Assembly (NCBI RefSeq): GCF_964355755.1 | Contig: NC_092673.1 | Coordinates: forward strand, 17,543,648-17,607,647 | Direction of reading: 5' to 3' | Source of the DNA: Antedon mediterranea | Lineage: Eukaryota > Animalia > Echinodermata | DNA length: 64,000 nt | Part shown: in pieces, positions 39,063-60,779 of the stretch | Layout of the letters: every line of letters starts with the position of its first letter | How positions within the stretch are numbered: the stretch's first letter is position 1 | The notes under the pieces: generated by a model | Seen by the model: the letters and a program-made list of their open reading frames with translations, nothing else | Database searches by the model: none | Told to the model about the DNA's origin: nothing | Translations under genes and position numbers: made by a program

Positions 39063-40544
39063 CAGTGTTCTCCCCAGGATTCACATCAAGCATCACGCTT
39101 CCGCCCCCCCCCCCCCGATTTTTGGTAATTGACACCCTAGATGGCCGGAAATTATCATATAAATTATTAAAATTGTCTAGAAACATAATCAAGGGTTACA
39201 TTTAAAATCACTTGAAATAAAAAAGGGCTACACATTTATATTAAAACTTATACAGCATATGTCACACAAATATAAAATACAATTGTAAATCGTAGGGAGA
39301 GAGATCTCCAGCACATATATATTTTAATTATTCAATAAGTCAAATATCTTGTCTTTACTATTTTTCCATTTCTGATCAGCAGTATAAAAGTCATACGAAT
39401 ACTCATTATTTATGAGGTTTATAATTTCATTTTTAAATAGACCCCAAATATTTGCAAATTCTTTTTTTTCTGTCGTTTCTAGTTCTTTATATATTATGGA
39501 GGATTTATATATATACAAAATGTAAAAACTGAAATTAATTCGTTTACAAGTTTGTTTGTTGTTCCCAAAATTACATTAACCCACTTTGGGAAGTCTTGCT
39601 GTACTGTAACCTCATTTGGAAGACACTGAAACTTTTTCCAGACTGGTTCAATAGTTTTACATGCAATTAATAAGTGTTCTTCATTTTCTATATGATTTTT
39701 ACACTTATTACATTTGTCTGTTGTGGATAATTTCCACCTTTTTAGTATTTTTTTACATATAAGGATTCGATGTAACAACTTAAAATTAAATTGAGCTACT
39801 TTTACCATGTGTTTCATTCTACATACTTTTCTATTCCATATTTCATTCCTGTCAATAATTTCATCTCTAAATTCTATTTCCCATTTCATTTGAGGAAAGG
39901 ACACTTCATAGCGCGCTAGCAAACAGCAGAACAATCGTAGCCTTCTTGATTGGAATGCAAATGTATGATCGATTCAGCTAGCAAATGAATTGCGCCTAGC
40001 AATTTAAGTTTTTTTTATGGTGTGTGCATACGTAACCGACGAAAGAGTAATTAAATTTTACCAATCCATAGAGAGTCAATTAATTCAGTGTGGTATTGAA
40101 AATATCATTAATAATTTATTTGTTAATGCACATAACATTTTTACAAGAAAATATAAATACAATCATTATTTTAACTTTATTTACAATATACAAGTTACTG
40201 CATTTTAAACGATTCAGGCAACAGCCAATACTAGAGATCAAAAGAGAAACATCTCTCGGTGGTGGCCGATGAAAGTGCGTCTCAGTCGCAGTAACACTTT
40301 GTTACGCAGTCTTTTGTTTTTCGTAGTGGTCATGTCACGTGTCTCGTATGCATTAGGCACTTTATGCATGCCTCAGCTCTAGAAAGTACCTGCCTGTTAT
40401 TAATCTATTTTTAGAAAGGTTGTGGTTGATATTTTGAAGCGTCACGGATAAGGTTTTAAGCGTCACAGCCGACCGTAAAGCGTCACGGCAGAGAACCCAA
40501 GCGTCACGATACGGTGACGCTTCAAGGGCCAGGGGAGAACACTG
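39063..40544. mobile_element. non-autonomous hAT-like element containing a LINE 3' fragment
   Basis: TIR cagtgttctcccc / ggggagaacactg; subterminal aagcgtcac repeats at 40437-40508; TSD degenerate. Confidence 0.75.
39324..39900 (-). pseudogene. L1/Tx1-type LINE ORF2 C-terminal zinc-finger (zf-RVT-like) fragment
   Basis: FNFKLLHRIL...RWKLSTTDKCNKCKNHIENEEHLLIACKTIEPVW, then a frameshifted IYIYKS tail. Confidence 0.8.
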
Positions 40545-42097
40545 AATTACATTTTTTTAAATATAAGAAAACGTTTAAAATATTTTGTTGCTCCTAATCT
40601 ATACTTTACATGGGTTAATGGAGATAATTTTGACACAATTTGATCTGTATATCACATGACTTTTAAGTTTAACCCAATGTCGTAACTCTTTGTATGGCAC
40701 TGGCTCTGCCCATAATTTGTTCGTTTACATTGGTTAATAGGAATTATGATATCTTCCTAACACTATCTTTGTTTATATGAAGATAGATAGGTAAACACGA
40801 TTTATATTTTCTATTTAATAGGCTAGCATGCAAGACTGATTGGGAAGTCATGTGACTCACAGAAGCAGTGACAATTATAAACACCCTATAGTCAAGTAGC
40901 GTCTGTTGATGTAGAGCTGTTCAGTTGGACTGATTTACCAGTGGATGGAGGATTGTTTCCAGGGTAGGGTACCAACAATTCTGTTGTTCAGATTCAGTTG
41001 TAGTGTGAGTTTTTATATTATTTATTTAATATTTAATTTGACTTACAGAATTGTGCTTTGTTTTATGACAATTACAGGAATAGCAATACTTTGTTTGGAA
41101 ATGTTGGTTTATGGCAACCCAGTTGCATCCATTGAAGTGTTTCTCAACTATTTTATTTTTACAGCAAAAATTGCAATACAATAAAATTACAGATTTTAAT
41201 TCGAAATTCAGAGGCTTAAAAGGTAATCTTGGTGAACACTACAAGGGTGATCACTATCTTTTGCTCAAATTCTGCCTATGTTATCACTTACCTTTTAGGA
41301 TTTTCATTTAATAGCACATAAATTGTTCAATAAACTTGTGTTAAAATGTTAATATCAAACGTACTAATGTCTGTTGTTGGAGAGTACAAAGGTCACAGAA
41401 GTTAGGCTGCTGAATATCTTGTAGTACTAAGTATATATTGAACGAAACATGTCTGACATGAAAATAAAAAAAGGTGTATTAGCCTGATAGTACAGTGATA
41501 CGCCCGTATTCTTAAACCGGACTTTAGTCGTAGTTTGAACTTTGACTTCAAAAAGTGTTAGTTCGAGCTACAGGCTCTAGACCCCTTGATTTCTATGCTA
41601 CAATTTACCCGATAAATATAGGCATATTTTGAACTTTAAAGGTCACTTTTTAAAATTGAAAAAATGGATTGACACAGTTATTGTGCATCGGTTTTTTGCA
41701 CGCAGTATTTTATTTATGCATTATGAAAAATGGAAAAAGTGGCTACCCTAAATCTGATTAAAATTGCCTCAAATGACGCTAGAACGCGTTGCTTCCAGGG
41801 GCTTCGCCATCTGGACCCCCACCGGGGGCCCTTGGCGGCCCCTCCCTGACACCCAGCATAGAGAGAGATTAACCAAATTATTAACCAAATAACTGATACG
41901 TTTTTCTGATACTCACAATTGCCTAGAGGGATGTTTTTGCTGTTTTTTTAGGGTATAAAGTATAGCGGCCAAACTGAATGGCAGCCATTTGTTGTGTATT
42001 AATTAAAGAAAAGTCATAATTGCCGTTTGGGAAAATGAATCCACAAAACAATGTTTCCAGTTGTTGATCTTTCAATCAATTATTATGAACAAAACAA

Positions 42098-42564: not shown

Positions 42565-45500
42565 ATGGAAAGGTACGTTTTTAACAATTATTTCAAACAA
42601 AAATAACCAGCTCCAATATGTGTTGATATTATTGAAATATGTAACTATTAAAAACAAATTAAAATGTTTGAATAGTTATATTGACATACATATATATAAC
42701 ATACTTTATAATCAGAATTTATAGTTCAAACAAAAAGAAAACACTTTGATTTTAAGATATTCTTTTGAGAAAAATACTTCAAACTTTCTTAAAAGATTAT
42801 AAAATCCAAAATTATTTCTTTCTTTCTTTAAAAATTATGAAATCATAAATATACAATTAAAGCGCTTATTCTCATTAAATATAATAATAATAATATTTCC
42901 ATCAATCATCATTCTCAATAAATACACGGGTATAAATGGATTATTTCTTACATTTTGACAGGAAACATTTGGTAGAAGCTTGGTCAAGGAATGATTTGAA
43001 AACAATTAAACAAATCTGTAAGACGCAACCAGGTCTTCTGAAATCTATCAATGAGGTATAAAAACAGATATATTTTTATAATATTATCAAAGAAGAAATT
43101 CTTTTCATTAAAGTTTAAAATTATAGAGGATGTAATTTTATTTAATAGTTTAAAGCTTTTTTACTTAATGAATTACAATTCTTTTGCATTATCACACTGA
43201 TGATGGAGGTATAACCTGCATATACTGATTAACCACATTAGGCTAAAAATAATAATATAGATACACACTGATGATGGAGGTATAACCTGCATGTACTGAT
43301 TAACCACATTAGGCTAAAAATAATAATATAAATACACACTGATGATGGAGGTATAACCTGCATATACTGATTAACCACATTATACACACTGATGATGGAG
43401 GTATAAACCTGCATGTACTGATTAACCACATTAGGCTAAAAATAATAATATAAATACACACTGATGATAGGGGTATAACCTGCATGCACTGATTAACCAC
43501 ATTAGGCTAAAAATAATAATATAAATACACACTGATGGGTATGGCAAGCCTCAGCTGTCTGGAGTATTCGAAATATTATATTATTAATAATGTGGTAAAC
43601 CATTCTATTTTGTTCTACTCATTTATTAATAATGATAATTATGATTATTTACCACAATATTTAGCAGCAATTGTTGTTGTTTGTATTGACAAAAAACAAA
43701 CAATTTCACATAATGTCTGTTGTCAATATTTATAAACTTTATTGTGATTCCTTTCCAGGATGGTGAAACTCCATTACATATATATCTGTGGAGTGGATAT
43801 CCACCTAACTTAGAAATAGTGACGTGTCTCATTCAGCATGGGGCACCAGTAGCATTGCAAAATAAGGTAATGTACAGGGATTTGCTGGTGTAATAGGCTA
43901 ACATTCTATAGATATGCTGTGGTAAACCATTCTATTTTGTTCTACTTATTTATTAATAATAATAATTATGATTATTTACCACTTTATTTAGTAGCAATTG
44001 TTGTTGTTTGTATTGACAAAAAACAAACAATTTCACATAATGTCTGTTGTCAGTATTTATAAACTTCATTATGATTCCTTTCCAGTATGGTGAAACTCCA
44101 TTACATTCATATCTGAGGAGTAGATATACACCTACCTTAGAAATAGTGACTTGTCTCATTCAGCATGGGGCACCAGTAGCATTGCAAAATAAGGTATTGT
44201 ACAGGGATTTGCTAGTGTAATAGGCTAACATTCTATAGATATGCTGTGGTAAACCATTCTATTTTGTTCTACTCATTTATTAATAATGATAATTATGATT
44301 ATTTACCACAACATTTAGCAGTAATTGTTGTTGTTTGTATTAACAAAAAACAAACAATTTTACATAATGTCTGTTGTCAGTATTTATAAACTTCATTATG
44401 ATTCCTTTCCAGAATGGTGACACTCTATTACATTCATATCTGTGGAGTGTACGTACACCTACCTTAGAAATAGTGACTTGTCTCATTCAGCATGGGGCAC
44501 CAGTAGCATTGCAAAATAAGGTATTGTACAGGGATTTGCTAGTGTAATAGGCTAACATTATATAGATCTGCTGAAGTAAACCATTCAGCAGTAATTGTTG
44601 TTGTTTGTATTTACCAAAAAAAAAACAATTTTACATAATGTCTGTTGTCAGTATTTATAAACTTCATTATGATTCCTTTCCAGAATGGTGACACTCTATT
44701 ACATTCATATCTGTGGAGTGTACGTACACCTACCTTAGAAATAGTGACTTGTCTCATTCAGCATGGGGCACCAGTAGCATTGCAAAATAAGGTATTGTAC
44801 AGGGATTTGCTAGTGTAATAGGCTAACATTATATAGATCTGCTGAAGTAAACCATTCAGCAGTAATTGTTGTTGTTTGTATTTACCAAAAAAAAAACAAT
44901 TTTACATAATGTCTGTTGTCAGTATTTATAAACTTCATTATGATTCCTTTCCAGAATGGTGACACTCTATTACATTCATATCTGTGGAGTGTACGTACAC
45001 CTACCTTAGAAATAGTGACTTGTCTCATTCAGCATGGGGCACCAGTAGCATTGCAAAATAAGGTATTGTACAGGGATTTGCTAGTGTAATAGGCTAACAT
45101 TATATAGATCTGCTGAAGTAAACCATTCAGCAGTAATTGTTGTTGTTTGTATTTACCAAAAAAAAAACAATTTTACATAATGTCTGTTGTCAGTATTTAT
45201 AAACTTCATTATGATTCCTTTCCAGAATGGTGACACTCTATTACATTCATATCTGTGGAGTGTACGTACACCTACCTTAGAAATAGTGACTTGTCTCATT
45301 CAGCATGGGGCACCAGTAGCATTGCAAAATAAGGTATTGTACAGGGATTTGCTAGTGTAATAGGCTAACATTATTTTCTATTTTGTTCTGGTTTACCACA
45401 TTATTTAGCAGTAATTTTTACTGTATTGTCTCATATTATGGTATATCTGCAGCACTGCAAAATAGGGTAATGTAGGCTTACAAAGAATTGTCAGGACAAT

Positions 45501-48500
45501 TTCACATTTTATTGTTATCAGTATTTATAAACTTCAACTTCAGTATCAATTAGCCTCCATATTAATCAATAGTATTACTACCTCAAAGAGTAGTATTATT
45601 TAATCAGACTTACAGATATAGAATTCTCAAGTGTTTGATTTTTTTCACATTTTTCTCTTTTTACACATAGCACATTCTAACAAGTTTGTTTTGATTTAGA
45701 TATTCATTTATAAGTCAACTATAATTGTAATGTGTTGTTGTTGTTTTAATATTTCATTTGTATCTGGATAGTATCCAAATATTATTTTCTTTGAAAGTTT
45801 ATAGTAAAACTATTTGTTGTTTTATATTATGGCTCAAACATTTTAACACATTTACCTACTGTTCCAAAGTAAACTTTTATTCAATTTATCTCTCTCTCTC
45901 TCAATGTTGAAGGCGGTAGACTATAAACGGCAGCGCTTAAGTTTTGGTTTGGATACAGGAGTTATAGGTGGCGCACTGTACAAGTTGATGTCATTTATTG
46001 GCAAATAGTAATTTCTATTCACGTCCTAATTTACAACCAATGTTAAAAAATAGTAAATCTACGTGTTATCACATGATGCTCTTTCATCCAATCTCTAGAT
46101 GGTAAATGTTTGAGCCATGACTGTATGTATGTGATGCGTATTAAAGTGTGTTATATTGTATATCAATAATTTCTCAAAAACTACTAAGTAACTACACCCA
46201 TTTTTTAATAGGATGGAAATACACCTGTCTCTGTTTTAGAAAGTAACAGGTGGATAGGGTACCAGAGAAAAATTGAAATTTTAAACTTCTTTAAAAGTAA
46301 GTGAAGTTTTAATTATTAAAATTTTGGAATCAACTAGTTTTCATTACAAACGATAAAGATTTGATTTTTTGTCCCAAATGAAGAAGACTGTCCAGATAAA
46401 GAAAATTAACATTTATGATATCATTCACAGGTTCAGATGGCAATAGATTAAATAATCCACTGGGATTGTAGTAAACATGGAAGTTGTGATATGTTGCAAG
46501 ATGTAAAAACCTTATTTTTTATGATTTGAAAATTGCAAATAAATTAGAAAAATTATTTTGCCATTACGATAAAAATACACAAAAATGCAAACTTTAAAAT
46601 TCCTTTGAATTAACAATATTGAATAAATTTGGCCACACTTTTTTTTTATGGAACGTCATTTTTCACATCAAATCAATCTCTTTATTCATCAATACATCAA
46701 AACAATTATACATAAACAAATTAAAGATGTGAAGATGAAAGGGACCTCCAAGAAACCCAAAGGGACTTGTGATAAAAGGACCACTATAAGCTAGTTACAA
46801 AAAAAACATACAAAAAATAAATTAATAAAATTAATAAAAATCCTGTATAGACAAATACACGGGATGCGCATTGTTAAGGAATATTTGAACTTTATTAATT
46901 GCATATAAATGTAAATGTAGAATATTTTTTTTTTAAATGTAATCTATTTTATATATAATGGTATTATTTAAAATATGTATTCGCAATCGAGGCAAACAAT
47001 TTACGATAGGAGGAGATAAATATTGAATTTAACAAGGCCATATAGATGTCTGCAGTCGCTTGCTCAAGTTAGTGTTTACCAACCGACCGACATAGTGAGT
47101 TGTAGAGTGGCGTTGCACGTGACTAAAAATCTAATTTTCTTGTTAATCCCATTTTTTGTTTCCACAATGAATGAATTTTCTTCACATACTTTAAGCCAGC
47201 TTAAGAATTCTATTTCTCTGTATGTAAAATTAAGCATCATACATAATGTATTTTACCTTGGCTCCTACAATTGTATTATCTTGCAACTTCTTATGCAAAT
47301 AGGCACAAAATAATAAGTAATATTTGAGCATAAACGCTTAAATAATTGTAAAAGTTGTTATAAATTAATGAGCTTTCAGTAGAGTACTTATACACAGAAT
47401 AATAGAATATTGCATTCATATTTTGTTTCTTTTTCTTCCCAACTTGTTGTTACTTTTTTCTGGGAGCCTAGGCTTAAAGTTTTATACTTTTAAGGTTTCC
47501 TTCCACACATACTATGTTTTATTAATTATTATCTTACATGTTTATATAATTATTATTTTATGTATTTTTAATATGTGTGAAGAATATTTATTCAATATCT
47601 ATTGAATATTGCATAAACGAATTAAATTTCAAATATTTATCCTTGGCTTGGTGTAGGCCTACTAAAAAAGGTTGAGAATACAGAACCAAAACTGATAGTA
47701 ATGTATGACAAAGTGAACAAACTTTTATAGTCTAAGGAACTTTCTTAGTCAATACATACAAGATTAAACCATTAGGTAAGAGTTCAAAATCTATTTCAAA
47801 GACCCTTTCCTTACAATTTTCGACGTTTTGTAAAAATAATGGAATATTACTTTAAAAACATTAAACCAGGTTATTCCTTGTCTTAGATGTACGTTTTATG
47901 GTAATTTATGATAAAATGAGAGAAAAAATGCACTACCTAAGTAGCTCGCAGTTTATTTATTATTATAAAGTTTATTAAAATCATTAATAAACTTATATTA
48001 TATATTTGATACTTTCTGATCGTACCAGACGTAACCATAGCCAGTGGAACAAAGCAATGATTTTTAACCAATAACGAATAATAAAAATAAAGCAATCAAT
48101 GTTTAAGGATAGTCTGCCTAATTCTGATCCGACAGCCACGCTGGGTGTGCTGTTTCCAATGCCTAAAATGAATCTTGAAAAACGTGTCTGTAAATGATCA
48201 ATTGGTGATAAATTCGAAAAGCCCCATGTCTCACTCCCGTAAATTAAAATTTGTAAAACTTTGTCAAAAATGTGTTTCCATATATTCTCTGGTAGGTATT
48301 GTGTTTTGCTAATAATTGATTGTAAATAGTACGTACGTTATTTGTTTTTTGACAATTGTGTTCAATTGTGTTATTCCACTGACCATTTGAATTGAAAACC
48401 ACTTCCAAGTAAGTATACGATTTAACAACTTCCATTTTAATGTTTATGTAATACCATTTTTCATATTTTCTTAATTTTTCATCTTTTTTAAATACCATTA

Positions 48501-51500
48501 TTTTTATTTGTTTACATTACACTAAGACGTGTCACAAAATATTTCCAATATAATTATTAAATGTTGTAAGCCTTTACTGTGTCTGCGAATAGTAATAAAT
48601 CAGCAGCATTATTACTTTCGTTATTTTGATTTAGCTAGTAATTCATAAATATATTAAATAGAGATGATGGCAGGGGTGACCCTTGTTGTATTCCAATTGA
48701 ACATTCAAATAGGAGCGTTAATGAGTTTCCTATTTTTACATGTGCTAATAATTGGAAACTAAATAATAATATATATGACGTCATATAATATTATTGACGC
48801 CTATTCTTAATTTTAATAATAGAAAATTATGCTTTATACTGTCAAGTGCACGTTTTAGATGAACGAAGCAACAAAATAGTCTACCCCTTTTTTTACGTAG
48901 ATATTTTTTAATTATCCTGTTAAGAATGAAAATATTATCTAATGTGCGGAATCCCTTGCGAAAACTTGATTGTTCTTATTAAATAATGTTATTGTTTTCA
49001 GTTAGTTATTCTAGTGTTAAGGATGTTTAAAAATATTTTGCCAAGAATTGGAATTAGAGAAATGCCCCTATATTAAATACTAGGCTAGACTTACCAAATA
49101 TTTATTTTGTTTTCAAATTTAGCGCCAGCTGAACCGCTGCTTCAATAGGCTAAAATAGTCCTTGGCTGTACTGCTAATAACTAATTGTACTGTATATTCA
49201 TTACATTGGTGGGGGGCGGGGGGCGGTGTTCTTCTAAACACCAAGCCCTTCAAAGTATAACTAAGCTCTACCAAGTGTATAAAGTGTATATTTTACAAAT
49301 ATTTATATATACAAACATTTAGAGTTTTTAATCAATTATGCAAGCAAGCAATTATGACACATTGTACATTCTAGGCTGATGTTTAAATTTTTTATTTTTT
49401 TAAATTAATATTTACAAAGTGTAGCGTACACACATAATGGGGAACTAACGACTGGGGACAGTGGGCACGTTTTCTGAGCGTGCTTTAGTAGGACCAGAAA
49501 AGCGCCCTTATTGTAAGCCTTTAAAGGTGCAATTCCAGGTCTATATTGGCAAAATTGTTTGACATCAGCCTAAACCATGGTGGGGCTCGAGTTATCTTTA
49601 TTGTGTTTTGACAAACAGGTATAAAAACAAAATTGATTACTGGTCATAAAACAGAATATAAATTAAAATATTCAAAAAGTTAATTCAAAGCATATTGAAA
49701 ACTTACGATAGATGTTTTTAATCGCATTTCCTACTGCCTAATGAATCATACCAGTTATTCATTTCAGGATTACTTTATTTTCACTTTACCCATTGAAACC
49801 ATGCTAATCAACCGTATGTTGCTAATTTCAACGATTTAGATTCAGGATCGCTGTCAAAAAATGTTGCATAACGTCTATATGTTTGGATGAGTTTGAGTTC
49901 CACAATTTTTATTAGGACATAATTTAAATTAATAACAGTAGTTGTTAACTGTATACATTGTAGTTAAAAATATACATTATTATTATTATTATATTATATT
50001 CAGAATGAATGATTGCTTGTACACAGTCACCCACAAGTGTTTGTAAGGCTTTGTATCACACAGAGCCTTTATATAACCTTATACCATTGAAAAAAAAAGC
50101 TATGACTTTTAATATAGTGTTTTTTATGAAAATTAAATATGTAATATTTTGGTTTTGTGCATTTTTTTAGATTTACCAAGTACTGTTGATGAGCAATTTC
50201 AAACACAATTTCAGAAACAGGCAAGTGACGAACAGAAAACAAAACTTCTTAAGCCAGAGAGTGGTAAGTTTAAGAATAAGAGCTGCTGTATGTTTTATGA
50301 TTGTATCTATATATAATTTAACAGAATTGTGATTAAAATGGGATTTCAGTAAAGAGAGAAGTAGACGCTAATGTTATTTAAAAAAACATTTCTGAGCGGT
50401 ACTGTAAAAAGGCGAAAAGTGTCCAACTGATAACAAATAACAAATGGAGAGATTTTATTTATCATAAATAAAACAAACAGTTGATTGTTTCCATTTAAAA
50501 TACTGTAATAATGCAATGAAGCTAGTTTGCAGATTTATGTGGCATGCTTGCTTGATTTTTGCTTGATTGTTGATTTTTAGGTTATATGCATTATCATGCG
50601 ATCACGCACGTACAACCTTTCTTTAATAATATCATCATATTTTATTCACTTTTCAACTCGAATTTGCGTTATACGAGCACGTCAAAAGTGACAGGCTACG
50701 CACGTGTAAGTTAACAAAATGGTAAAAATATGCTAAATTTTAAAAATAATATAGATCGTCAGAATGCTCGGGAACACATATTTTTTATTTCATTTTCTTG
50801 AAGTGTATGTATCATATGTATGATTTATTATGAAATTAAGAGTACAAAAGTTGATCAAGTCATCATTAATTGCATTTTAAATTTAAAAAAATTTATTTCG
50901 ACAATCAAAAAATTATGACATTTTCTTAGGCCGAAATAACAAACTTTAACTTTCTTCCTTCAAAATAAAAGTTCATATATTAAAGTTAAAAGTATATAGT
51001 TTGACAGTGCATGATTTTTTAACATTTTTAAAGATGTCATCATAGTAAAAAATACACGGAGGAATCTTTCTACAACTTTTAGTCAGTTGTGTATGGCTCG
51101 GTGGTCTGTGCTCGTGTCTATGGCATTCAAGGTACCAAGATCGAGTCTCATATTGGGAAACGAAATAATATTTTTTTTATTATCCATATTGTTTGTTAGT
51201 CATTTTATTTGTTAGTGTATAGATTATACACATAATTTATAATGAAATCTAGATAAAAAGTAAGTAATGTCTTTATTATTATGTAGTGGTTTATGACATT
51301 ATACGCAGAGGGATCTTTGATCGGATTGTGATACAGAATATTGTATTCGCATTAGCAAGGTCCTATATCTATATATAAATTTACGTAAGGGCAAAATTCG
51401 CGGTTTATTTCTAGAATTTATACTCAATGGTATATAAAGTTGGTTCGTACTTTCGGTACTCATTTTAACCATCTGATGTAACCCTGTTTACTAATTAAAT

Positions 51501-54500
51501 TGAGTTAAATAATTAGTTATTGACAATTAAAACAAATTCAGGTTCAACGATTTGCCCCAAATAGGGGTGTTTCGTGGTTGTGGTATACACTGTATAATGG
51601 ATGTCAATCTTAATAAATACCCACACACAATAATACGAGGATGCTTCGCATTTTCCTATCTCCTCCTCAATAATTGTTTTTAATAGCTGAAAACTGGTTG
51701 AACAGCTCGAGTACAGCATCATAATGTTGAAGATTTTCTTTAAAAAATACTATTTTGATAGATTTAATAAACGTTTATACAAATGTTTTGATCTGGGATA
51801 AATGGAACATTCCAATCTCTGTTCCACAAGTTTCTATTCCCTTAGGCGTCGTAAAGACAAGTACAGTCATAACAGAAATTCGATCCATTTTTTTTCAATC
51901 TGTGCGGATTACCAATAAAAAAAAAAACCAAAATTCATATCTTTAACAACGCATTAACAGGAATACTATCAAGTTTCCAACTCTTAACCAACGGAGGAAC
52001 TACTTTTATTGTATTTGTCTCTATAAATGTATCAATGTGTCATTTGGGTCCTTTCTCCTTTCTTTATTTGAATGAATATTCTTAAAAACGGATTTACCAT
52101 TTTATGGGCCCTCAACAAGACAAAACAACAAACAACAACAAAGAATTATAAAAATTAAAATAAAGATATGAACAAGATGATAATGACAAAGAAGTTTGTG
52201 TTAATAAGAATGATATTACTCTAACATAATAATTAGTATCATATTTTAACACAAAGAATATAATGCTGATTATTAAGATAAACATAAAGTGTGTAGTTTT
52301 GTTGTACTGTAGTTGAATTTCTAAAGCTGATTATAGATATAGAAAGTTATTATAATGTTTCACAAATCTTTCTGAAAACAATGATTTCAACAATAAATAT
52401 AGCATAGCATAGTTAAATGTAGACAGTGAACAATTTTATTCCCTGGTGGTAGTGTTTTCTCTGCTTTGGCCCTCCTCAGCACTCCACATTTTGCTGAAAC
52501 AAATAAAAATTGAAATTTACATCATTGTGTGAACAGGTGCCATGTTAAAATATATTAAATATAAATTAGACAAATTTCATATATATCTTGTTTTTAAAAT
52601 AGACTTATATATATATTATATAAAAATCATAGATAAAATCTCATTGATTAGATGATAAGTGAGAGTACCAATGCCTATTATTGTAGATAAAGGTTATATA
52701 TAATAATATGATACCATGATGATGATCAAGATATGATAATGACACTCGGGCTATGTTCAGACATAGCCTCACCAGCCTTTGTAACCTACACCAGTATAAA
52801 AATAGATAAATTATTATTATATGGTAGCATTATGAACATTAACAATTTTTGCCAAGTTGTGTCTTTTAATATTTCTTTTTATGAAAAATATGTGTAAAAG
52901 ATTTTGTATGTTACATTTTTTAGATTTACCAAGTCTTGTTAGTAAACAGTTTGAGAAACTAATGGTTGAAGAACAGAAAACAAAGCTTAAACCAGTGATT
53001 GGTGAGTTTAAGAATCGTATAAGGAGTTGTATGGTTCAATGTAACATATTGTGATTAAAATGGTATTTCAGTAGTGGACTTGTAGTAAGAATTTCATTCA
53101 TTTATTTTATCATATATTATATAATATACAAATTCTTATAATTGCGTGCAACTTCAATAGCTTAAATTGTCCTTGGCTGTACTGCTATGATTATAAGTTT
53201 CTCACTCATGGTTCAAAATTTGGCACAAAACATTTTCAATGAGTTGAAAGATTAAGAGAATAATTTAATTGGTCAGATGTTTTGTCTTATTCTGACGTAA
53301 TTGCACTGTATACTCAGTTCAATGAGAACACTTTGCGAACAAATTTAAAAGTATTTGACAGATTGGACTCAAACCCATGACCTCCAGATTACTAGCATTG
53401 CGTATATACCTCCAGACCACCGAGCTCAGTAGTATAGAGAGGTTTGAGTCCCATCCACACACTCATTATAGTGTAAATATCTTTTTAAATGGTTACATAT
53501 TATTTTAGTTACTGTTCATGTATTTATTACAACAGATGGCATGGTAATGATACCACAACCAAAGTTGGCTGCAATAATATTAAAAACAGGAAAAACTATT
53601 TTTGTTATAAAATTAAATAGAACTAACACTGTGCAATTCAAGTTGAAATAAATGAATTGAGGAAAATAGACAATCTTACATTGCTGTATATAAATTGTTC
53701 TGCTAGTTAACTTAATGACATGTTCAAATATAAGCTGTATTACTGTATCTACTACTGTACTGTTAATATAATCTTGACAATAAAGATGATTTGGTACTAT
53801 TTTTGTTAAGGAGTTATACTCTAAAGAGAGCTAACATTGTAACTTTGTCATGGAAGAAAGTATAATTGTATTATGAAGGAGATTGCAACAATTACTATAT
53901 AAACACAATTCAAATAATATTTCATTCTGCAGATCAAATGGAGTTAATTGTGGACTCTACAGGTGGAACTCTTCACCTTAAGGATGAAGACATCAAGTTG
54001 GAGATACAACCTGGAGCAATTGAAGAAGGAAAAACAGTTAAAATATCACTAGAAAATATTTTGGAGGAAACAGACATGCCTGTATTTCATCCACTTGAAT
54101 CAATAATATCACCTATTGTTAAATGTGGACCAGAAGGCACCATCTTCCACAAGCCCTGTTTACTGTCATTTCCACACAATGCTGTAAATGAAGAGTTTTG
54201 GGAATTCACTTTACTTTTTCAAAAATGCTCTCAAGATAAATGGAAAAAACTGACAGAAAGTAATGAAAAGGACATCAATTTTACATTAAAGAATGGTCGA
54301 TGTTTTATAAATTTAATTCACTTCAGTGGTTTTGCATTTATGGGTCGAATAAGAAACGTTTTTCATGCTAAGAAAAGTATAAAATTTGGAGTCTTTGGAA
54401 AGATGATTGTAAATGAATATCAGCTTCGAGTAAAATTTTGGATGCCGGAAAAACAGCAGGTCATTTTAAATTTGTTTAAATATTCATATTCTTTATTTCA

Positions 54501-57500
54501 AATCGTACTTACAGTGAAACACTGAATTACTGTAATTTTTACAATGTTAAAACATTTTAAAACTATTAAATTAAATTTTAATAGTAAGTAACACCATATA
54601 AAACTAAACTACTGTACACATAAATAACAGAAAAAAAATAAAGTTGCTGTGATTTTCAGCTTCCTAAAAAAATTCAGTTGCACTAAACAACACAAAAGAA
54701 ATTTAATGGAAAATCAGCCTACAATTTGTCTGAAATTGATGGCGAATTAAATACAGTAATTGTATAAAATCTTCAATACTTCAAAGAACTGCAGTTTTAC
54801 CACACTGCCGTCATTCTAAAAGCTGTATTTAGATTATTATTATTTAACTTTATTTATACTATATGTATAAATTTTATTGATTGGACTAATCATTATAAAT
54901 ACACTTAAAAAATGTAAACAACATTTTTAAACTTGAAGCAGATCACAAGTGCTTGAATTCAGAGCGGAATAGAAGATTCAGAGACATATGTACTGTACTC
55001 ATAAAACAGCCTATAGTTGATCAAAAATGTTCAGTTTAAAAAAATCTTGTCTGAATTTTAGGAGGTTGATAAAGAACAAGCATACCAGGGAGAGAAACTT
55101 TTAGAAGGAGGTACAGTACGGTCTTTGTATAAAGACTTGGAAATAAGTGTTGAAATACCAAATCAAGAATGGAGAATAGTGGATAAAAGAAAAAAAGTAA
55201 GAATATTTATTTTGTTTTTCTTTGTAATAATTAATAATTGAAAATTCTATCTATCTATACAAAATTTAATATCATCACAATGATTCCAATTAAACAGGAT
55301 ATTGAAAAAATCTCTAAACCCCACCTTAACATTTCTGAAATAAATAAAAAACTTGAAGTGAGTAAAAAACAATAAGAATTTGTTGATTATTGGTACTGTA
55401 CTACCAATGGTCTGAAAAAACCCATTAAACTAGGCCTACTAGACTCAAGCCTCATTTTTTGTTTATTACTCGATAGTTTTACTTGTAAATGTTTGAATTC
55501 AATTCAATTAAATTCATTTATTTTCCAGAAAGACATAAAAAACATATATTTATTTGTAAACACTTTTATTTTCATTTATCCGACTCATCGTCAGGGCTTA
55601 ATGTATATATATTACTGTATTTTCAATTGGATTTAATTGATTATGAAATTAAAATATAAGATTTTTAAATAAATTGGTTTTCTTGTTTGATTTTCCTGAA
55701 CTAGGGTAGGCTCCATCCTACTGGAAGATAACTGGTTCCCAAAAGATAGAGTTTTGTCATTTTGCGTGTGAATTAATGATTAGCTTACTTCTAACTATAG
55801 GCCTATGTCTGAATCGATTAATACTTTGCTCGGAGCGCTTATGTCAACTGAGTTGAGTTTGAGCCCAGGTTTTTGAGAATTACGGCCCACCACTGTTGAA
55901 ATGAAATTTCTTTGATTTGAAGATAACCTGGTTTGATATTGACCTTAATCTAATGACCTTACAGTATTTGAGTATTAAAAATCTGACTACAGTGCCCATC
56001 TACAAATTCAAAATCAGTAAAAACTAACTACTGTACTTTTTAAAATTTATCACCATACTTTCTTTTTAGATTATTCCTGCTGAATACCTATCGTTCGAAA
56101 TATCATATGAGAAATTTTTTTTAAAAAGAAAGAATTCATCCACAAATCTTCTAAAGGCAAAGTTATTGCTTTCACAAGATTCAAATTTTATTCCCGAAGT
56201 GGAAGTGGTTTGTAAGTACAATTTAAGTAGCAAAAATCTACATATAAAACACATTATAATTTATAAAGTACATTGTTCTTTTTGAAAACTATTGAATCTG
56301 TGATCTTGGACATGTATCCTAATTAAACCACAAATCATATTTTTTTTCCAGGTGATATTGGAACATTGGTTTCAAGCCAAAGTATGTATTTTCAGTAGTA
56401 ACTGTTTATATTATATATTTCCTTCATGAAAAACTAATAATTCGTCCATCCAAAATAGAGCAACTTTTGTTTTAGTTAAATTTTTAGTAACATAAAAAGA
56501 GATTGTTTGCATGAGGTACAGTATATTTTTTTGTTTTTAGTCAGAATTCAAATTAACATGCTACATTCTTCACATGCAAAAATAATGTTGTTATAACCAC
56601 TTGAATGTATTGTTTGTTACAGGTAATGTTGTACCATCAAGATCAAATTCAGGTATAATTATTATATTTTTATGTTCCAATTTTTTTTTTGTACAATGAT
56701 GGTGACAGTGAATGGATTAACATCAATAATCTAAATCAACAGTATTAATTATAAAAGAAAGTGTGTATTAGTCATAACAGGGACCAGTAAGTAAGTATAT
56801 CAAAATAAAGAAATTTAAGTAAACCATTCAAAATCATTGTAATTAATTATGGGTAAAAAGACATTTATTAACACACAAGAAGAATAGGCCTACTTCTTCA
56901 TATAATTCAAAGAAACCTAATAGAATTATCAACTGTTTCATTCCAACTTTTCAAAATAAATCATTTTAATACAGTTTTTTTTATATGAGTGTGCAAATGT
57001 AATTGTTTATTTTTTAATGAAAATTGGTAATTTAGTGAATAACTAGAGGGTACTCCGAGAGTACAAACCTCCGCCTACTGTAAAATTCCCCTACATAAAA
57101 TTTTCCCGGAAAATATATATAGTTCTAAGTGTAAATAGGCTAACTGCACACTACAAAGTTGTGGATGAGAGTTTGGTGTAATGGTTATGTATCCAGCCTC
57201 TCACAGTTGAGATCGCTGGTTCAAGTCCCACTGAAGTTATTTTTTTTTAATTATTATTTTTTTATTTCTTTTTTTGTTTTGTTTTTTGTGGACCTTAATG
57301 ATCTTTGACCCTGACCCTTCAAAATTTAACCACAATTATATGATGAGTCATTGATCATTGTGGCTAAGTTTGGTGAGATTTGGATAAAAACTGTGGTCTC
57401 TAGGCAGTAAAATAGTTTTTTGTTAGTTGTGACCTTGAACTATGACCTTTTCCCCTCAAATTCAAACTCGTCCGAGCTTTTGAGGAATAGATCATTGTAG

Positions 57501-58536
57501 CCAAATTTGGTGAGATTCGGATAAAAACTGTGGCCTCCAGGCTGTTCACAGACACACACACACACAAACACACAGGGGTGAAAACCTCCATGGCGGAGGT
57601 AATAAAATAGTATTACTCAAAAGATAATGCTACTTAAATCTATTATAAGCAAATTTAAAAGGTTTAGCTCTTTAATAATTAAAACAAAATTGCACACATG
57701 AATGCATTTCAACTTGTAAAGATTTGTTTTTACAATCTATATATAAATTATGGTTAATTCTGACATAGTTGAGGACAATGGAAAAACTTCGGTATAAATC
57801 TAGAGAACCATTCGGGTACAACCAGTGGAGGGTGCGCGAGCGAACCCTCTAGTAGTGATAATTGTAATTGTAATAAAGAGGACTACTTTTTTCTTTTTGC
57901 AGTCACTGTAAATCCATGGCAAGTAAGGTTCAACAAGTTGAAACATGATCTTAGTCTAGTCTATGTTGGTGATAAATTTCTCTTACTGAGATGCTGTCTC
58001 TTTGACCACATAGATCTACATCACCTTACTGATCCAGGTAGCATCGCACATTACCTATTTAACAAACTCCATGAAAAGCGTTATATCACACCTACTAATG
58101 TCAGTCTATTGTTAGACATTGCTAAAGTATCAGATTTGAATGATGTTGAAATTCTTATAAATCAGTATGTGATTGACAACAAGGTTCCAAACACTGATGA
58201 AGAAAAACTTTCACCATACAGGTCAAAATTGTGTGAGGCATTGAAGCAATTTGACCAAAATACTTTAAATGGTGTAATTGCTTTCTATGGATTGGATTCA
58301 ATGAGAATGCAATTGCCAACCATTTGGGATTTAGTGTTTCACCTGGAGAGAACTGGAAAATTAGTAGAAGAATCAGAAAGGAAGATTTTTGCTGAGCGTC
58401 TTGGAACAATTGCAAACAATATACTATTAACGGTATGTATTTGGTAAATTAAACATTTTTTTTATAAAAAAAAAACCCACAAAAATGCCATTCACTACCA
58501 ACCTGTTTTTTCCTACAGGTACTTGCTGATGAATGA
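42565..58536 (+). CDS. spliced gene 2: ankyrin-repeat / ZU5 / UPA-like / tandem DED-like protein, about 805 aa
   Basis: Exons, all AG/GT and phase-compatible: 42565-42572, 42962-43055, 43759-43866, 44086-44193, 44413-44520, 44684-44791, 44955-45062, 45226-45333, 46212-46296, 50171-50263, 52924-53001, 53933-54459, 55062-55196, 56070-56211, 56352-56381, 56623-56652, 57903-58432, 58519-58536 (TGA). Sum 2418 nt, open throughout. Start and last exon are less certain. Confidence 0.85.
43194..43535. repeat. about 71-bp intronic tandem repeat, about 5 copies
   Basis: acactgatgatggaggtataacctgcatRtactgattaaccacattaggctaaaaataataatata... Confidence 0.9.
43759..45333 (+). CDS. six tandem 108-nt ankyrin-repeat exons of gene 2 (exon+intron units of 327, 327, 271, 271, 271 bp)
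   Basis: DGETPLHIYLWSGYPPNLEIVTCLIQHGAPVALQNK; YGETPLHSYLRSRYTPTLEIV...; 4 x NGDTLLHSYLWSVRTPTLEIV.... Matches ankyrin consensus GxTPLH...LEIVxxLxxxGA; ttccag acceptors and aag|gta donors. Confidence 0.93.
48100..48760 (-). pseudogene. degenerate non-LTR retrotransposon RT fragment (intronic)
   Basis: Minus-strand remnants GIQQGSPLPSSLFNIFMN, LLLFAD and MVFKK...YTYLEVVF, with stops and frameshifts. Confidence 0.7.
53360..53428 (-). repeat. tRNA-derived SINE-like head
   Basis: Minus strand gagctcggtggtctggagg...ctagtaatctggaggtcatgggtttgagtcc has A-box and B-box-like motifs but no good cloverleaf; similar heads at ~51092 and ~57170. Confidence 0.45.
53933..54459 (+). CDS. ZU5-domain exon of gene 2, with HFS motif and start of UPA-like region
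   Basis: VDSTGGTLHL..IKLEIQPGAI...IISPIVKCGPEGTIFHKPCLLSFPHNA..W is the ZU5 signature; FINLIHFSGF with HFS at 54319-54327. Confidence 0.93.
57042..57603 (-). mobile_element. HINE/DINE-1-like element in an intron of gene 2
   Basis: aactagagggtactccgagagtacaaacctccgcc ... (ca)n ... aacctccatggcggaggtaat: stem-loop, subTIR acctccgcc/ggcggaggt, microsatellite and tgacctt repeats; contains a tRNA-like segment at 57165-57240. Confidence 0.75.
57903..58432 (+). CDS. tandem death-effector-domain-like exon of gene 2
   Basis: FNKLKHDLS...LRCCLFDHI...YLFNKLHEKRYITPTNVSLLLDIAKV...LINQY followed by SPYRSKLCEALKQF...IWDLVFHLERTGKL. Both fit the DED pattern (LFxxLExxxxI..N..LL; SPYR between tandem DEDs). 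Confidence 0.75.
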
Positions 58537-58560
58537 GAAGATCCACTTTCATCCAAGCAG

Positions 58561-59770
58561 GTACCATGTGAGACAATGAAGAAAGTAATTTACCATTACC
58601 ATGTAAACCATTGCCATGTGAGACAATCTAGCAACTACCATTGCCGTGTGAAAAAATCAAGCACGTACCATTGCCATGTGAGACAATCTAGCAACTACCA
58701 TTACTGTGTGAAAAAATCAAGCAAGTACCATTGCCATGTGAGACAATCTAGCAACTACCAGTACTGTGTGAGAAAATCAAGCAAGTACCATTGCCATGTG
58801 AGACAATCTAGCAACTACCATTATCATGTGAGAAAATCAAGCAAGTACCATTGCCATGTGAGACAATCTAGCAACTACCATTATCATGTGAGAAAATCAA
58901 GCAAGTACCATTGCCATGTGAGACAATCTAGCAACTACCATTATCGTGTGAAAAAATCAAGCAAATACCATTGCCATGCGAGACAATCTAGCAACTACCA
59001 TTACTGTGTGAAAAAATCAAGCAAGTACCATTGCCATGTGAGACAATCTAGCAACTACCATTATCATGTGAGAAAATCAAGCAAGTACCATTGCCATGTG
59101 AGACAATCTAGCAACTACCATTATCGTGTGAGAAAATCAAGCAAGTACCATTGCCATGTGAGACAATCTAGCAACTACCATTACCGTGTGAAAAAATTAA
59201 GCAAGTACGGTACCATTGCCATGTGAGACAATCTAGCAACTACCATTATCGTGTGAAAAAATCAAGCAAATACCATTGCCATGCGAGACAATCTAGCAAC
59301 TACCAGTACTGTGTGAGAAAATTAAGCAAATACCATTGCCATGTGAGACAATCTAGCAACTACCATTACTGTGTGAGAAAATTAAGCAAGTACCATTGCC
59401 ATGTGAGACAATCTAGCAACTACCAGTACTGTGTGAGAAAATTAAGCAAGTACCATTGCCATGTGAGACAATCTAGCAACTACCAGTACTGTGTGAGAAA
59501 ATCAAGCAAGTACCATTGCCATGTGAGACAATCTAGCAACTACCATTATCGTGTGAGAAAATCAAGCAAGTACCATTGCCATGTGAGACAATCTAGCAAC
59601 TACCAGTACTGTGTGAGGCAATCTAGCAACTACCATTATCATGTGAGGAAATCTACCTAAAAGTACCATTACCATGTGAAACAATCAAGCTAGTACCATC
59701 GAGTGACAATCAAGCAACTACAATTATTGTGTGTGACAAGCAAGTACCATTACTATGTGACAAGCAAATG
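58561..59770. repeat. 60-bp (2 x 30-bp) tandem repeat, about 18 copies with degenerate edges
   Basis: gtaccattgccatgtgagacaatctagcaa-ctaccattaYYRtgtgaRaaaatcaagcaa. Confidence 0.95.
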
Positions 59771-60586
59771 CCACTGACTGATAAAATCAAGTGAGTACCA
59801 TAAATACTGTGTGAGGTTTAAAAAATGCCACCAATCTTCTATCAGTACTGTAAATCACAACGCAAACAAATTGACCAATTAAAAACAAATTTATTATTAA
59901 ATTATTATGATCAATTCGCTTGCATTGCGGTTTACGCCCTTGCGATGCGTCGTATTGAGAAATAAGAATGTTTCCAGTCACTTTGAACAAACATTTCGTT
60001 AGATCAAGTATAAAAATAAATGGTCTGAACAACTTGCATTCAGTCTTATGTTTTTAGACTTTTACTAGTTACCAAGGTTAGGTTATAATAAGATTTTTCA
60101 ACAAAATGTTCATATTAGTGTATAGTGAATATAATAATCAAATTTCAAAACCGTTCAGTAGATTAAGTAAAGATTAAGCAATAATTTCTTCATGAAGAAC
60201 TCCTTGTCACCATTTACAGCAAAGAAACTGTAAAAAGACATTCCTAAGTAAAGTGCCATGTTTAAATAAATGCCTATAAAGTACAGAAATAGGATCATAA
60301 CTAATTATTGTGTTAATTTTAGGCAGTAGTAGTGAAGATGAAAGTGAGGGCACACCATTGAGTCAAAGTTACTAGAGTACATTTAATGTCTAATCTTAAG
60401 TTTAAGAATAAAACACATTAGGTATTAATTGTTTTTTCTTGTTTCTAGAGCTGAATATAGATAAACCACTAAAAAATTATATTCATAACCATATTCTTAA
60501 AATTTCAAGATAATTTATGATTCAAATGATTGCTATATTATACTGAATTCATTACATGATATGAAAACCTGTTTTTCTTCATATAG

Positions 60587-60770
60587 ATTTCTCAGAGGAC
60601 GGTTTTAAACAGTTGATTGCAGACTTTGCAAAATGGTTTGATGAACGTGAACTCCTTAACAGGCTACAAGTTCTATTTATAGAAATAAGAGACATTGAAG
60701 AAGTGAAAATTTTATTTTGGATCTGGAATCGCGAGGGTTGCTGAGTGAAGACCAAATTGAATCCATTGAG
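60587..60770 (+). pseudogene. relic DED-like exon downstream of the gene 2 stop codon
   Basis: ttcttcatatag acceptor, then DFSEDGFKQLIADFAKWFDERELLNRLQVLFIEIRDIEEVKILF and, after a frameshift, LESRGLLSED; runs into a tandem repeat. Confidence 0.55.
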
Positions 60771-60779
60771 AAGTCATAT

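What the first reader, a model, noticed from the sequence alone, without database searches (positions are those of the whole stretch)
42565..58536. ANK-ZU5-UPA-DED-DED: a PIDD/UNC5CL-like sensor with ankyrin input and tandem-DED output
Seen: an 18-exon, ~805-aa open model that the ORF track mostly misses. Established: the ZU5-UPA-death domain supramodule occurs in UNC5, UNC5CL, ankyrins and PIDD1 (LRR-ZU5-ZU5-UPA-DD), and tandem DEDs are the caspase-8/10/cFLIP recruitment module. Here the death domain is replaced by two DED-like folds and the N-terminus is a variable ankyrin array; I do not recall a characterised protein with this combination. Inference: a lineage-specific cytosolic receptor that could couple ligand binding directly to DED-caspase filament assembly, or act as a FLIP-like decoy, without a FADD/RAIDD adaptor.
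Basis: partly seen in the sequence, partly recalled or inferred. Interest (0 to 1): 0.85.

Follow-up and report, generated by a model that had tools for sequence, protein, structure and literature searches.

The report
Feather-star self-cleaving ankyrin death sensor
A feather-star gene has exons for ankyrin repeats, a ZU5-UPA module and a caspase-8-like pair of death-effector domains, likely spliced into one protein that is predicted to cut itself and would then release a death or immune signalling fragment, much as the human sensors CARD8 and PIDD1 do.

Summary
The 18-exon, 805-aa model is real: all 17 introns are GT-AG, frame open. It is from the crinoid Antedon mediterranea. RefSeq XP_071948765.1 matches exons 10-18 but omits the ankyrins. 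Ank and ZU5 are Pfam hits, UPA is supported structurally, and exon 17 folds confidently as a caspase-8-like tandem DED (pLDDT 95.8, Z 15.9). The gene belongs to a cluster that shuffles ankyrin, ZU5-UPA, Roc-COR, tandem-DED and membrane modules. A paralogous model splices the same ankyrin cap to the same linker exon, then to Roc. Best reading: a CARD8/PIDD1-like self-cleaving sensor that releases UPA-tandem-DED (0.42). The ankyrin-to-ZU5 join rests on gene models, not transcripts. Cleavage, ligand and partner are untested, and caspase-8's FL and RxDL motifs are not kept. New variant of a known kind; interest 0.62.

The parts
42565..42572 (+). Exon 1 coding part (ATG, 8 nt, phase 2)
   Evidence: paralog models P0016 and P0018 begin with the same M-E-R start followed by the exon-2 sequence
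42962..43055 (+). Exon 2, likely N-terminal ankyrin cap (aa 3-34)
   Evidence: 88% and 64% identical to the starts of P0016 and P0018; cap role inferred
43759..45333 (+). Exons 3-8: six 108-nt phase-0/0 exons, one 36-aa ankyrin repeat each (43759-43866, 44086-44193, 44413-44520, 44684-44791, 44955-45062, 45226-45333); exons 5-8 identical
46212..46296 (+). Exon 9, likely C-terminal ankyrin cap, ends in phase 1
   Evidence: 68% identical to P0017 76-103, which continues into an exon-10-like linker
50005..50038 (+). Mini-exon used as first exon by the RefSeq model P0001 (lies in intron 9 of the 18-exon model; weak GTTTGT donor); rival start
   Evidence: end coordinate inferred from the junction codon
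50171..50263 (+). Exon 10, phase-1/1 linker shared with Roc-COR paralogs
   Evidence: 97% identical to P0013 19-48, 82% to P0012; junctions
52924..53001 (+). Exon 11, phase-1/1 linker, a diverged duplicate of exon 10 with its flanks
   Evidence: DNA alignment; P0002 starts at its internal Met
53933..54459 (+). Exon 12: ZU5 domain and start of UPA (aa 336-511)
   Evidence: Pfam ZU5 E 5e-20; UNC5B E 1.2e-10
54319..54327 (+). His465-Phe466-Ser467, predicted autoproteolysis site (cut between Phe and Ser)
   Evidence: aligns with the Gln-Leu-Gly of UNC5B at the end of ZU5
55062..56211 (+). Exons 13-14 (55062-55196, 56070-56211): rest of UPA
56352..56652 (+). Exons 15-16 (56352-56381, 56623-56652): two 30-nt phase-1/1 exons, Ser-rich spacer between UPA and tDED
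   Evidence: same residues in RefSeq P0001
57903..58432 (+). Exon 17: tandem DED (aa 624-800)
58519..58536 (+). Exon 18 coding part with stop codon
   Evidence: same C-terminus in RefSeq P0001

Best explanation
These exons encode ankyrin repeats, a ZU5-UPA module with an intact His-Phe-Ser motif and a tandem DED fold, likely as one cytosolic protein that is predicted to cut itself at Phe466/Ser467 and would act as a CARD8/PIDD1-like immune or stress sensor. Steps. (1) Shown: domain content, tDED fold, motif. (2) Inferred from gene models: ankyrins and ZU5-UPA-tDED are on one transcript. (3) Inferred from PIDD1/CARD8 chemistry: an N-to-O acyl shift gives a 466-aa ankyrin-ZU5 fragment (53 kDa) and a 339-aa UPA-tDED fragment (39 kDa) that stay bound, with ZU5 holding the C-fragment silent. 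(4) Inferred: the diversifying ankyrin face binds, or serves as bait for, a foreign or damage-linked protein, and binding or degradation of the N-fragment frees UPA-tDED. (5) Inferred: UPA lowers the threshold for tDED clustering, which recruits DED-bearing partners without a FADD-like adaptor. The partner is either a DED-caspase or, at least as likely, one of the family's own tDED-kinase, tDED-TIR, tDED-PARP14 or tDED-NLR proteins.
For: Open 805-aa frame, 17 of 17 introns GT-AG. Join: paralog model P0017 runs ankyrins, exon-9-like cap, exon-10-like linker, Roc, with the same junction as exon 9/10 here. P0016 and P0018 share the exon 1-2 start. RefSeq P0001 equals exons 10-18 (99.8% over 528 aa). 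P0013's RefSeq start matches other intron-9 sequence of this window (49461-49553), so two models start at two different intron-9-like spots in front of the same linker, which looks like 5' guesswork (inference). Cleavage: His-Phe-Ser at the end of ZU5 is the PIDD1 motif, in which Ser, Cys or Thr serve as nucleophile (PMC9162469 section 6 read; PMC3210808 passages). Of 14 ZU5-UPA rows, 12 cover the site: Phe 12 of 12; Ser/Cys/Thr 11 of 12 (4/5/2), or 9 of 10 after removing two duplicate rows. None of the 10 S/T/C-only columns among 268 mixes all three residues. Phe466 aligns with Leu137 of the 405-residue 3g5b chain, which is Leu-677 if the chain starts at 541 (numbering recalled); CARD8's scissile Phe-296 corresponds to Leu-677. 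Output: tDED fold; UPA promotes death-fold filaments in CARD8/NLRP1 (PMC7794386 abstract; PMC11874512 passages). Immune context: the same tDED occurs with NACHT (8 of 59), Roc/COR, kinase, TIR, RING/B-box-NHL and PARP14 domains. Sensor face: among exons 3-5, non-synonymous differences are 7, 10, 8 against synonymous 1, 1, 0, and all amino-acid changes fall in codons 1-17 of 36. The same half varies, with indels, in 9 distinct repeats from four genes. Fisher p 0.009 against flanking intron (boundary chosen after seeing the data). No membrane segment (best 19-residue hydropathy 1.28, against 2.59 in P0002).
Against: RefSeq's model of this locus lacks the ankyrins. None of the 3 ankyrin relatives found carries ZU5 or DED, and 0 of 59 tDED relatives has an Ank hit at E 1e-4, so no annotated protein shows the full architecture. 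The P0017 model itself starts in intron-like sequence, so these models are imperfect witnesses. One of 12 ZU5 rows has Ile-Phe-Asn at the site (residues 3-5 of P0005, whose upstream ZU5 is missing). AlphaFold of ZU5-UPA-tDED failed (pLDDT 35.5), so the catalytic pocket and autoinhibited packing were not modelled. The tDED departs from caspase-8: no RxDL in 0 of 48 family rows (motif recalled). Ala stands where wild-type caspase-8 DED2 has the second Phe of FKFLL (register from a weak HMMER alignment; Ala, Gly or Ser in 34 of 48 rows), and Cys-Cys stands where most of the family has Phe-Leu in DED1. No relative carries a caspase domain (0 of 59). Four of six repeats are identical, and decayed tDED exons flank the gene on both sides, as in fast birth and death.
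Confidence: 0.42

Rival explanations
1. The protein is made whole, and may be cut, but its tDED is a decoy or non-apoptotic adaptor. It would cap or divert DED assemblies like cFLIP/vFLIP, or signal to NF-kB-type outputs, rather than start a death filament.
For: Viral and cellular FLIP tDEDs are close structural matches too (MC159 Z 13.9, KSHV vFLIP Z 13.0, cFLIPs Z 12.5). Atlas hit 3 is a v-FLIP-like cluster (0.90). Caspase-8's DED2 Phe and RxDL are not kept. KSHV vFLIP binds IKKgamma (PMC11874512 passage).
Against: A decoy needs neither a diversifying repeat array nor a conserved nucleophile. The same tDED sits at the effector end of NACHT-LRR proteins, where death folds normally transmit signal (established knowledge).
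Confidence: 0.2
2. Two genes: an ankyrin-only gene (exons 1-9) and a separate ZU5-UPA-tDED gene starting in intron 9, as RefSeq models it.
For: RefSeq P0001 starts at 50005. Two ankyrin-only models exist in the cluster (P0016, P0018). Exon 9 read through reaches a stop within three codons, and AATAAA hexamers follow. Intron 9 is the longest, 3874 nt.
Against: Exon 9 has a consensus GTAAGT donor in the phase exon 10 needs. P0017 has exactly this junction. The RefSeq mini-exon has a weak donor, and P0013 uses a different intron-9-like start. P0016 ends in mid-repeat and its accession lies just before P0002, which starts at an internal Met of the exon-11 equivalent; this suggests one split gene (inference).
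Confidence: 0.18
3. A young, shuffled duplicate that is silent or nearly neutral, an intact gene on its way to becoming a pseudogene.
For: Exons 5-8 and their introns are identical. Frameshifted or stop-bearing tDED and linker remnants lie at 41162-41420 and 60325-60773. Paralog models are often fragments.
Against: No stop or frameshift in 2418 nt, although the protein has diverged about 30% from its nearest paralog (70% identity) and its tDED about 40%. Ankyrin changes are almost all non-synonymous and confined to one half of the repeat.
Confidence: 0.12
4. An uncut scaffold of the UNC5B/ankyrin type, in which ZU5-UPA folds onto the death-fold end and a ligand opens it allosterically.
For: Closest solved and predicted structures are UNC5 receptors. 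UNC5B and ANK2 sequester their DD in a ZU5-UPA-DD supramodule (PMC9162469 passage).
Against: UNC5B has Gln-Leu-Gly at the site, whereas this family keeps His/Ser-Phe-Ser/Cys/Thr.
Confidence: 0.08

Closest known systems
CARD8 / NLRP1 (FIIND = ZU5-UPA, then CARD)
   Same: Variable N-terminal region, ZU5, cut site at the end of ZU5, UPA, flexible linker, death-fold domain at the C-terminus. FIIND clusters appear among Atlas look-alikes (0.92).
   Different: Tandem DED instead of CARD; ankyrin array instead of a disordered or NACHT-LRR N-terminus; His-Phe-Ser instead of Ser-Phe-Ser; no Pfam FIIND hit; sequence nearer UNC5. PMC3210808 lists mammalian 'ded' proteins with a FIIND (passages; domain order not seen, Figure S2 is an image), so FIIND plus DED in one chain has a precedent.
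PIDD1 (LRR-ZU5-ZU5-UPA-DD)
   Same: Repeat array, His-Phe-Ser autoproteolysis motif after ZU5, UPA, death fold.
   Different: Ankyrin not LRR, one ZU5 not two, tDED not DD, member of a lineage-specific cluster.
UNC5 receptors and UNC5CL (ZU5-UPA-DD)
   Same: Best sequence and structure matches of the ZU5-UPA module (3g5b E 3.8e-11; TM 0.89 and 0.85); RefSeq calls paralogs 'UNC5C-like'.
   Different: No ectodomain or membrane anchor here; tDED instead of DD; UNC5B lacks the cut motif. UNC5CL self-cleavage is recalled, not read here.
Caspase-8 / cFLIP / vFLIP tandem DED
   Same: Two rigidly packed DED folds in the same arrangement (Z 15.9, 157 residues).
   Different: C-terminal, 16-19% identity, no caspase domain, no RxDL, altered hydrophobic patch.
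Ankyrins ANK1-3 (ANK repeats-ZU5-ZU5-UPA-DD)
   Same: Same order of domain classes: ankyrin repeats, ZU5, UPA, death fold.
   Different: Only weak sequence match (E 0.004-0.6). One ZU5, about 8 short-exon repeats of a family otherwise found in front of Roc, tDED. Resemblance likely convergent (inference).
ROCO genes with one-repeat-per-exon arrays (brown algae) and shuffled death-fold immune families of marine invertebrates
   Same: Repeat units on single exons with diversifying change, proposed as immune receptors (PMC11378527 abstract); lineage-specific shuffling of DED, FIIND and ZU5-UPA in marine invertebrates (PMC8195603 passages; PMC2575513 passages).
   Different: Ankyrin not LRR; here the Roc-COR switch is replaced by ZU5-UPA and the output is tDED.

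Membership tests
Self-cleaving ZU5-UPA proteins (PIDD1/CARD8/NLRP1 type) | ZU5 domain followed by UPA | tested here: met
   Pfam ZU5 E 5e-20; UPA by structure TM 0.89 and UNC5B alignment; Pfam UPA only sub-cut-off in a paralog
Self-cleaving ZU5-UPA proteins (PIDD1/CARD8/NLRP1 type) | His/Ser-Phe-[Ser/Cys/Thr] at the end of ZU5 | tested here: met
   H465-F466-S467; nucleophile kept in 11 of 12 rows
Self-cleaving ZU5-UPA proteins (PIDD1/CARD8/NLRP1 type) | Strained, buried-Phe pocket around the site | tested here: inconclusive
   AlphaFold model of P0001 failed, pLDDT 35.5
Self-cleaving ZU5-UPA proteins (PIDD1/CARD8/NLRP1 type) | Observed autoproteolysis with fragments staying associated | not testable with these tools
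   needs expression and mutagenesis
PIDD1 orthologs | LRR-ZU5-ZU5-UPA-DD | tested here: not met
   Ank not LRR, one ZU5, tDED not DD
CARD8/NLRP1 orthologs | Pfam FIIND and C-terminal CARD | tested here: not met
   no FIIND or CARD hit; CARD structures score Z 7.8 or less against 15.9 for tDED
UNC5 / UNC5CL | Membrane anchor and a single C-terminal DD | tested here: not met
   no hydrophobic segment; tDED
Tandem-DED proteins (caspase-8/cFLIP/vFLIP fold) | Two rigidly linked DED folds | tested here: met
   pLDDT 95.8; Z 15.9, rmsd 2.5, 157 residues
Tandem-DED proteins (caspase-8/cFLIP/vFLIP fold) | RxDL charged-triad motif (recalled) | tested here: not met
   0 of 48 family rows
Tandem-DED proteins (caspase-8/cFLIP/vFLIP fold) | Phe-Leu hydrophobic patch of DED2 used for chain growth (role recalled) | tested here: inconclusive
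   Ala-Phe at the aligned place, register from a weak alignment
Tandem-DED proteins (caspase-8/cFLIP/vFLIP fold) | Filament formation or binding of a DED-caspase | not testable with these tools
   no crinoid caspase sequence in hand
Ankyrins ANK1-3 | Long ankyrin array with ZU5-ZU5-UPA-DD | tested here: not met
   one ZU5, tDED, weak similarity
ROCO proteins | Roc-COR tandem | tested here: not met
   absent from this gene; present in paralogs that share its ankyrin, linker or tDED exons

The most novel reading that the evidence does not exclude
Crinoids run an exon-cassette immune kit. One diversifying ankyrin sensor and one family of tandem-DED outputs are wired through either of two interchangeable switches, a Roc-COR GTPase or a self-cleaving ZU5-UPA. 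This gene is then an independently assembled CARD8-like tripwire whose released UPA-tDED nucleates a DED filament with a private interaction code, signalling to the family's own kinase, TIR or PARP effectors or straight to a DED-caspase with no adaptor.
Probability: 0.3. Interest if true: 0.85.

Novelty: new variant of a known kind. Interest (0 to 1): 0.62.

Why it matters
Release of a UPA-death-fold fragment after ZU5 self-cleavage is described for vertebrate CARD- and DD-ended proteins (CARD8, NLRP1, PIDD1). A tDED-ended version in an echinoderm would show that this switch is a portable cassette that invertebrates plug into the caspase-8-type pathway. The cluster offers a natural swap experiment: closely related ankyrin inputs and tDED outputs on either a GTPase or an autoprotease switch, with natural Ser, Cys and Thr nucleophile variants. 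It also points to a large tDED family that Pfam detects poorly (29 of 59 at E 1e-4) and that RefSeq models in fragments. The first prediction is cheap to test: 53 + 39 kDa fragments, lost on Ser467Ala.

Tried and rejected
Transcript evidence: no RNA holder listed. The four runs laid on 45400-49360, among them the one guessed to be RNA, covered 30 of 30 bins of mostly intronic sequence and showed no joint at the exon 9 boundaries, so they behave as DNA. This gives no verdict on expression or on the exon 9-10 join. No whole genome is held, so paralogs could not be counted or mapped; their clustering is inferred from shared contig length and neighbouring accessions. AlphaFold of the 538-aa RefSeq protein with 7 sequences failed (pLDDT 35.5) and was not used. 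Profile-profile comparison of DED1 with DED2 gave nothing (probability 0.6%). Foldseek gave no match at E 0.001 or below (best 1.0e-3), so the tDED call rests on the VIA search plus concordant ranks. Ankyrin copy number (assembly artefact or real recent expansion) was not tested. Ten paper searches listed no paper whose title or abstract start describes ANK-ZU5-UPA-DED or a crinoid tDED family; the library lacks most subscription journals. Supplements of PMC8195603 gave 0 hits for UPA+DED, FIIND+DED and ANK+ZU5 strings in 13 files, but file 4 is cut in storage, so rows may be unseen. PMC12909245 and PMC11258412, passages only, added nothing; PMC11874512 had no passage on the FL or RxDL motifs. 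Four look-ups of earlier scan findings were empty. Rejected: the long frames in the 60-nt repeat after the stop (58537-59657) as part of the protein, because the stop precedes them and RefSeq ends at the same residue. Also rejected: stray Pfam hits such as Tim44, PSRP-3, Msap1 and TcpF, as chance matches.


Full report
1. Observation. I rebuilt the gene from splice signals. Eighteen coding exons from 42565 to 58536 give 805 residues and one terminal stop, and 17 of 17 introns are GT-AG. Exons 3-8 are 108-nt phase-0 exons with one ankyrin repeat each. Exons 5-8 and the three introns between them are identical; exons 3, 4 and 5 differ by 8-11 bases. Pfam finds Ank (exons 3 and 4 above cut-off), ZU5 (E 5e-20) and only a faint DED (E 0.066).

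2. Origin and annotation. Exon 17 is 100% identical to A. mediterranea XP_071948765.1 (P0001, 538 aa). That model equals exons 10-18 (99.8% over 528 aa) but starts with 11 residues from intron 9 and has no ankyrins. The ankyrin search found 3 proteins among 10 candidates, none above 78% identity, so this locus's ankyrin exons appear unannotated.

3. Domains. UPA: P0001 matches UNC5B through ZU5 and UPA (E 3.8e-11; profile E 6.4e-19). The Atlas model of residues 66-345 superposes on UNC5 (TM 0.89) and UNC5CL (0.85) (predicted on both sides). tDED: 60 relatives at E 0.001 or below in the 50% library. I aligned 47 proteins (45 of those 60 plus P0003 and P0014, chosen for an N-terminal tDED) with exon 17. 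The fold has pLDDT 95.8 and 12 helices. It matches caspase-8 tDED best, Z 15.9, rmsd 2.5 over 157 residues, followed by MC159, FADD DED, vFLIP and cFLIP; DD and CARD score 9.3 or less. The family profile also finds caspase-8 by sequence (E 0.0015-0.012).

4. Are the ankyrins joined? Support is from gene models only. P0017 has ankyrins, an exon-9-like cap and an exon-10-like linker with the same junction, then Roc. P0016 and P0018 start like exons 1-2. P0013 starts with sequence matching another part of intron 9, so RefSeq twice supplies an intron-like start before this linker. Exon 9 ends in a consensus donor in the phase that exon 10 needs. Against: RefSeq splits the locus; exon 9 read-through stops at once; no annotated protein has the whole architecture. 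I put the join at about 0.8.

5. The cluster. Of 12 relatives of P0001 (7991 candidates scored), all are A. mediterranea and 8 lie on a contig of the same length, 36.19 Mb, as do the 3 ankyrin relatives. Architectures include ZU5-UPA-tDED-TM (P0002), ZU5-UPA-ZU5-UPA-tDED (P0004), tDED-ZU5-UPA (P0014), tDED-TM-ZU5-UPA-TM (P0007), Roc-COR-tDED (P0009, P0013), DED-linker-Roc (P0012) and ANK-linker-Roc (P0017). The ZU5 module begins at the same Asp in 6 of 6 paralogs shown, whatever precedes it; in the window the linker, ZU5-UPA and tDED modules all open in phase 1, which permits shuffling. In a tree of 22 of 82 tDED rows that I picked, this tDED groups with P0002 and with Roc-COR-borne tDEDs (100/100), and P0023's UPA-borne tDED pairs with a COR-borne one (100/99). 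The five UPA-borne tDEDs are rejected as one clade (p-AU 1e-4; group named after I had seen the quick tree). So tDED and its upstream switch have been recombined more than once. The 59 unnamed relatives add NACHT (8), LRR-Roc-DD, RING/B-box-NHL, URGCP GTPase, PARP14, kinase (3), MAM and TIR partners; none has Ank or a caspase domain at E 1e-4. Their species are unknown to me; the nearest Atlas cluster is mostly echinoderm.

6. Self-cleavage motif. His465-Phe466-Ser467 (54319-54327) closes the ZU5 domain. PIDD1 is cut in His-Phe-Ser by an N-to-O acyl shift, and Ser, Cys or Thr can be the nucleophile (PMC9162469, section 6 read). CARD8 and NLRP1 are cut in Ser-Phe-Ser and the fragments stay bound (PMC3210808, passages). 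In 12 of 14 rows that cover the site, Phe is invariant and the next residue is Ser, Cys or Thr in 11; the exception is Asn at the very start of a truncated model. After removing two duplicate rows the count is 9 of 10. UNC5B has Gln-Leu-Gly there, and its Leu-677 is the stated equivalent of CARD8's scissile Phe (the chain offset is recalled). Cleavage would give 466- and 339-residue fragments of 52.8 and 39.2 kDa. Cleavage itself is untested, and the fold that might have shown the pocket failed.

7. Ankyrin array. All amino-acid differences among exons 3-5 lie in codons 1-17 (non-synonymous 7, 10, 8; synonymous 1, 1, 0). The second half is almost fixed across 9 distinct repeats from four genes, while the first half varies with indels. 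Changes in codons 1-17 exceed flanking intron (p 0.009) and codons 18-36 (p 0.0006), with a boundary chosen after the fact and small counts. That this half is the ankyrin binding face is recalled knowledge. One-repeat-per-exon arrays under diversifying change are reported for brown-algal ROCO LRRs (PMC11378527, abstract).

8. Mechanism. Most likely a CARD8/PIDD1-like sensor: constitutive self-cleavage, ZU5 restraining UPA-tDED, ankyrins binding or baiting a foreign or damage signal, release of UPA-tDED, UPA-assisted clustering (as for CARD8/NLRP1; PMC7794386 abstract; PMC11874512 passages) and recruitment of DED partners. The partner is the weakest step. The family has no RxDL (0 of 48), mostly small residues where caspase-8 DED2 has its Phe, and this gene has Cys-Cys for the family's usual Phe-Leu in DED1. 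It may pair with its own family's effector proteins rather than with caspase-8. Confidence 0.42 for the whole chain; rivals are a FLIP-like decoy or adaptor (0.2), two separate genes (0.18), a silent young duplicate (0.12) and an uncut scaffold (0.08).

9. Comparison and novelty. It works like CARD8/PIDD1 but is a member of neither; it is not UNC5, not an ankyrin and not a ROCO protein (membership table). Shuffled DED, FIIND and ZU5-UPA fusions in marine invertebrates are documented in general (PMC8195603, passages and supplement searches; PMC2575513, passages), and FIIND with DED occurs in some mammalian proteins. Ten paper searches listed nothing on this architecture, within a library that lacks most subscription journals. 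Verdict: new variant of a known kind, interest 0.62; boldest reading 0.3 likely and worth 0.85.

Noticed in passing
window 198-412 and 4794-5036 (+), with small candidate exons near 2477-2530, 3237-3255, 4461-4498: 3' end of a Roc-COR gene (80% identical to P0013 651-724) that appears to end in a two-helix membrane exon like that of ZU5-UPA protein P0011: a likely membrane-anchored ROCO variant.
   Followed up: partly
window 41162-41420 (+): Decayed tandem-DED exon with a frameshift and stops, about 1.1 kb upstream of the start codon.
   Followed up: partly
window 60325-60773 (+): Remnants of an acidic linker exon (with a stop) and of a second type of tandem-DED exon, 81-83% identical to P0004 with about 96 codons missing and a frameshift. 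The gene may once have ended in two tDED pairs, as P0026 does.
   Followed up: partly
window 58607-59760 (+): 60-nt tandem repeat, 19 copies, directly after the stop codon, with long open frames in two phases; could be a decayed coding repeat or plain satellite.
   Followed up: no
window 44312-45374: 271-nt exon-plus-intron unit repeated 3.9 times at 99% identity: very recent expansion or assembly effect; ankyrin number may vary between animals.
   Followed up: no
window 47996-48975 (-), 62316-64000 (-), 39494-39973 (-), 18784-20579 (-): Retroelement remains by inspection of translations: LINE-like reverse-transcriptase fragments in intron 9 and at the window end, and a Ty3/gypsy-like gag-pol fragment upstream. 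Labels are by eye, not from a family scan.
   Followed up: no
window 5512-10121, 25264-29506, 34846-35065, 60822-61374: Several long minisatellite arrays (periods 62, 101, 30, 36, 24, 98) that create spurious long ORFs.
   Followed up: no
proteins P0016 and P0002 (XP_071948736.1, XP_071948739.1): An ankyrin-only model and a ZU5-UPA-tDED-TM model with near-consecutive accessions may be one split gene: a second ANK-ZU5-UPA-tDED with a tail anchor and a Cys nucleophile.
   Followed up: partly
protein P0023 (unnamed): Roc-COR-tDED-ZU5(His-Phe-Cys)-UPA-tDED: both switches in one chain.
   Followed up: partly
window 45400-49360: DNA runs show several variant copies of intron-9 sequence with indels, consistent with segmental duplicates of this region; depth is not a copy number.
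   Followed up: no
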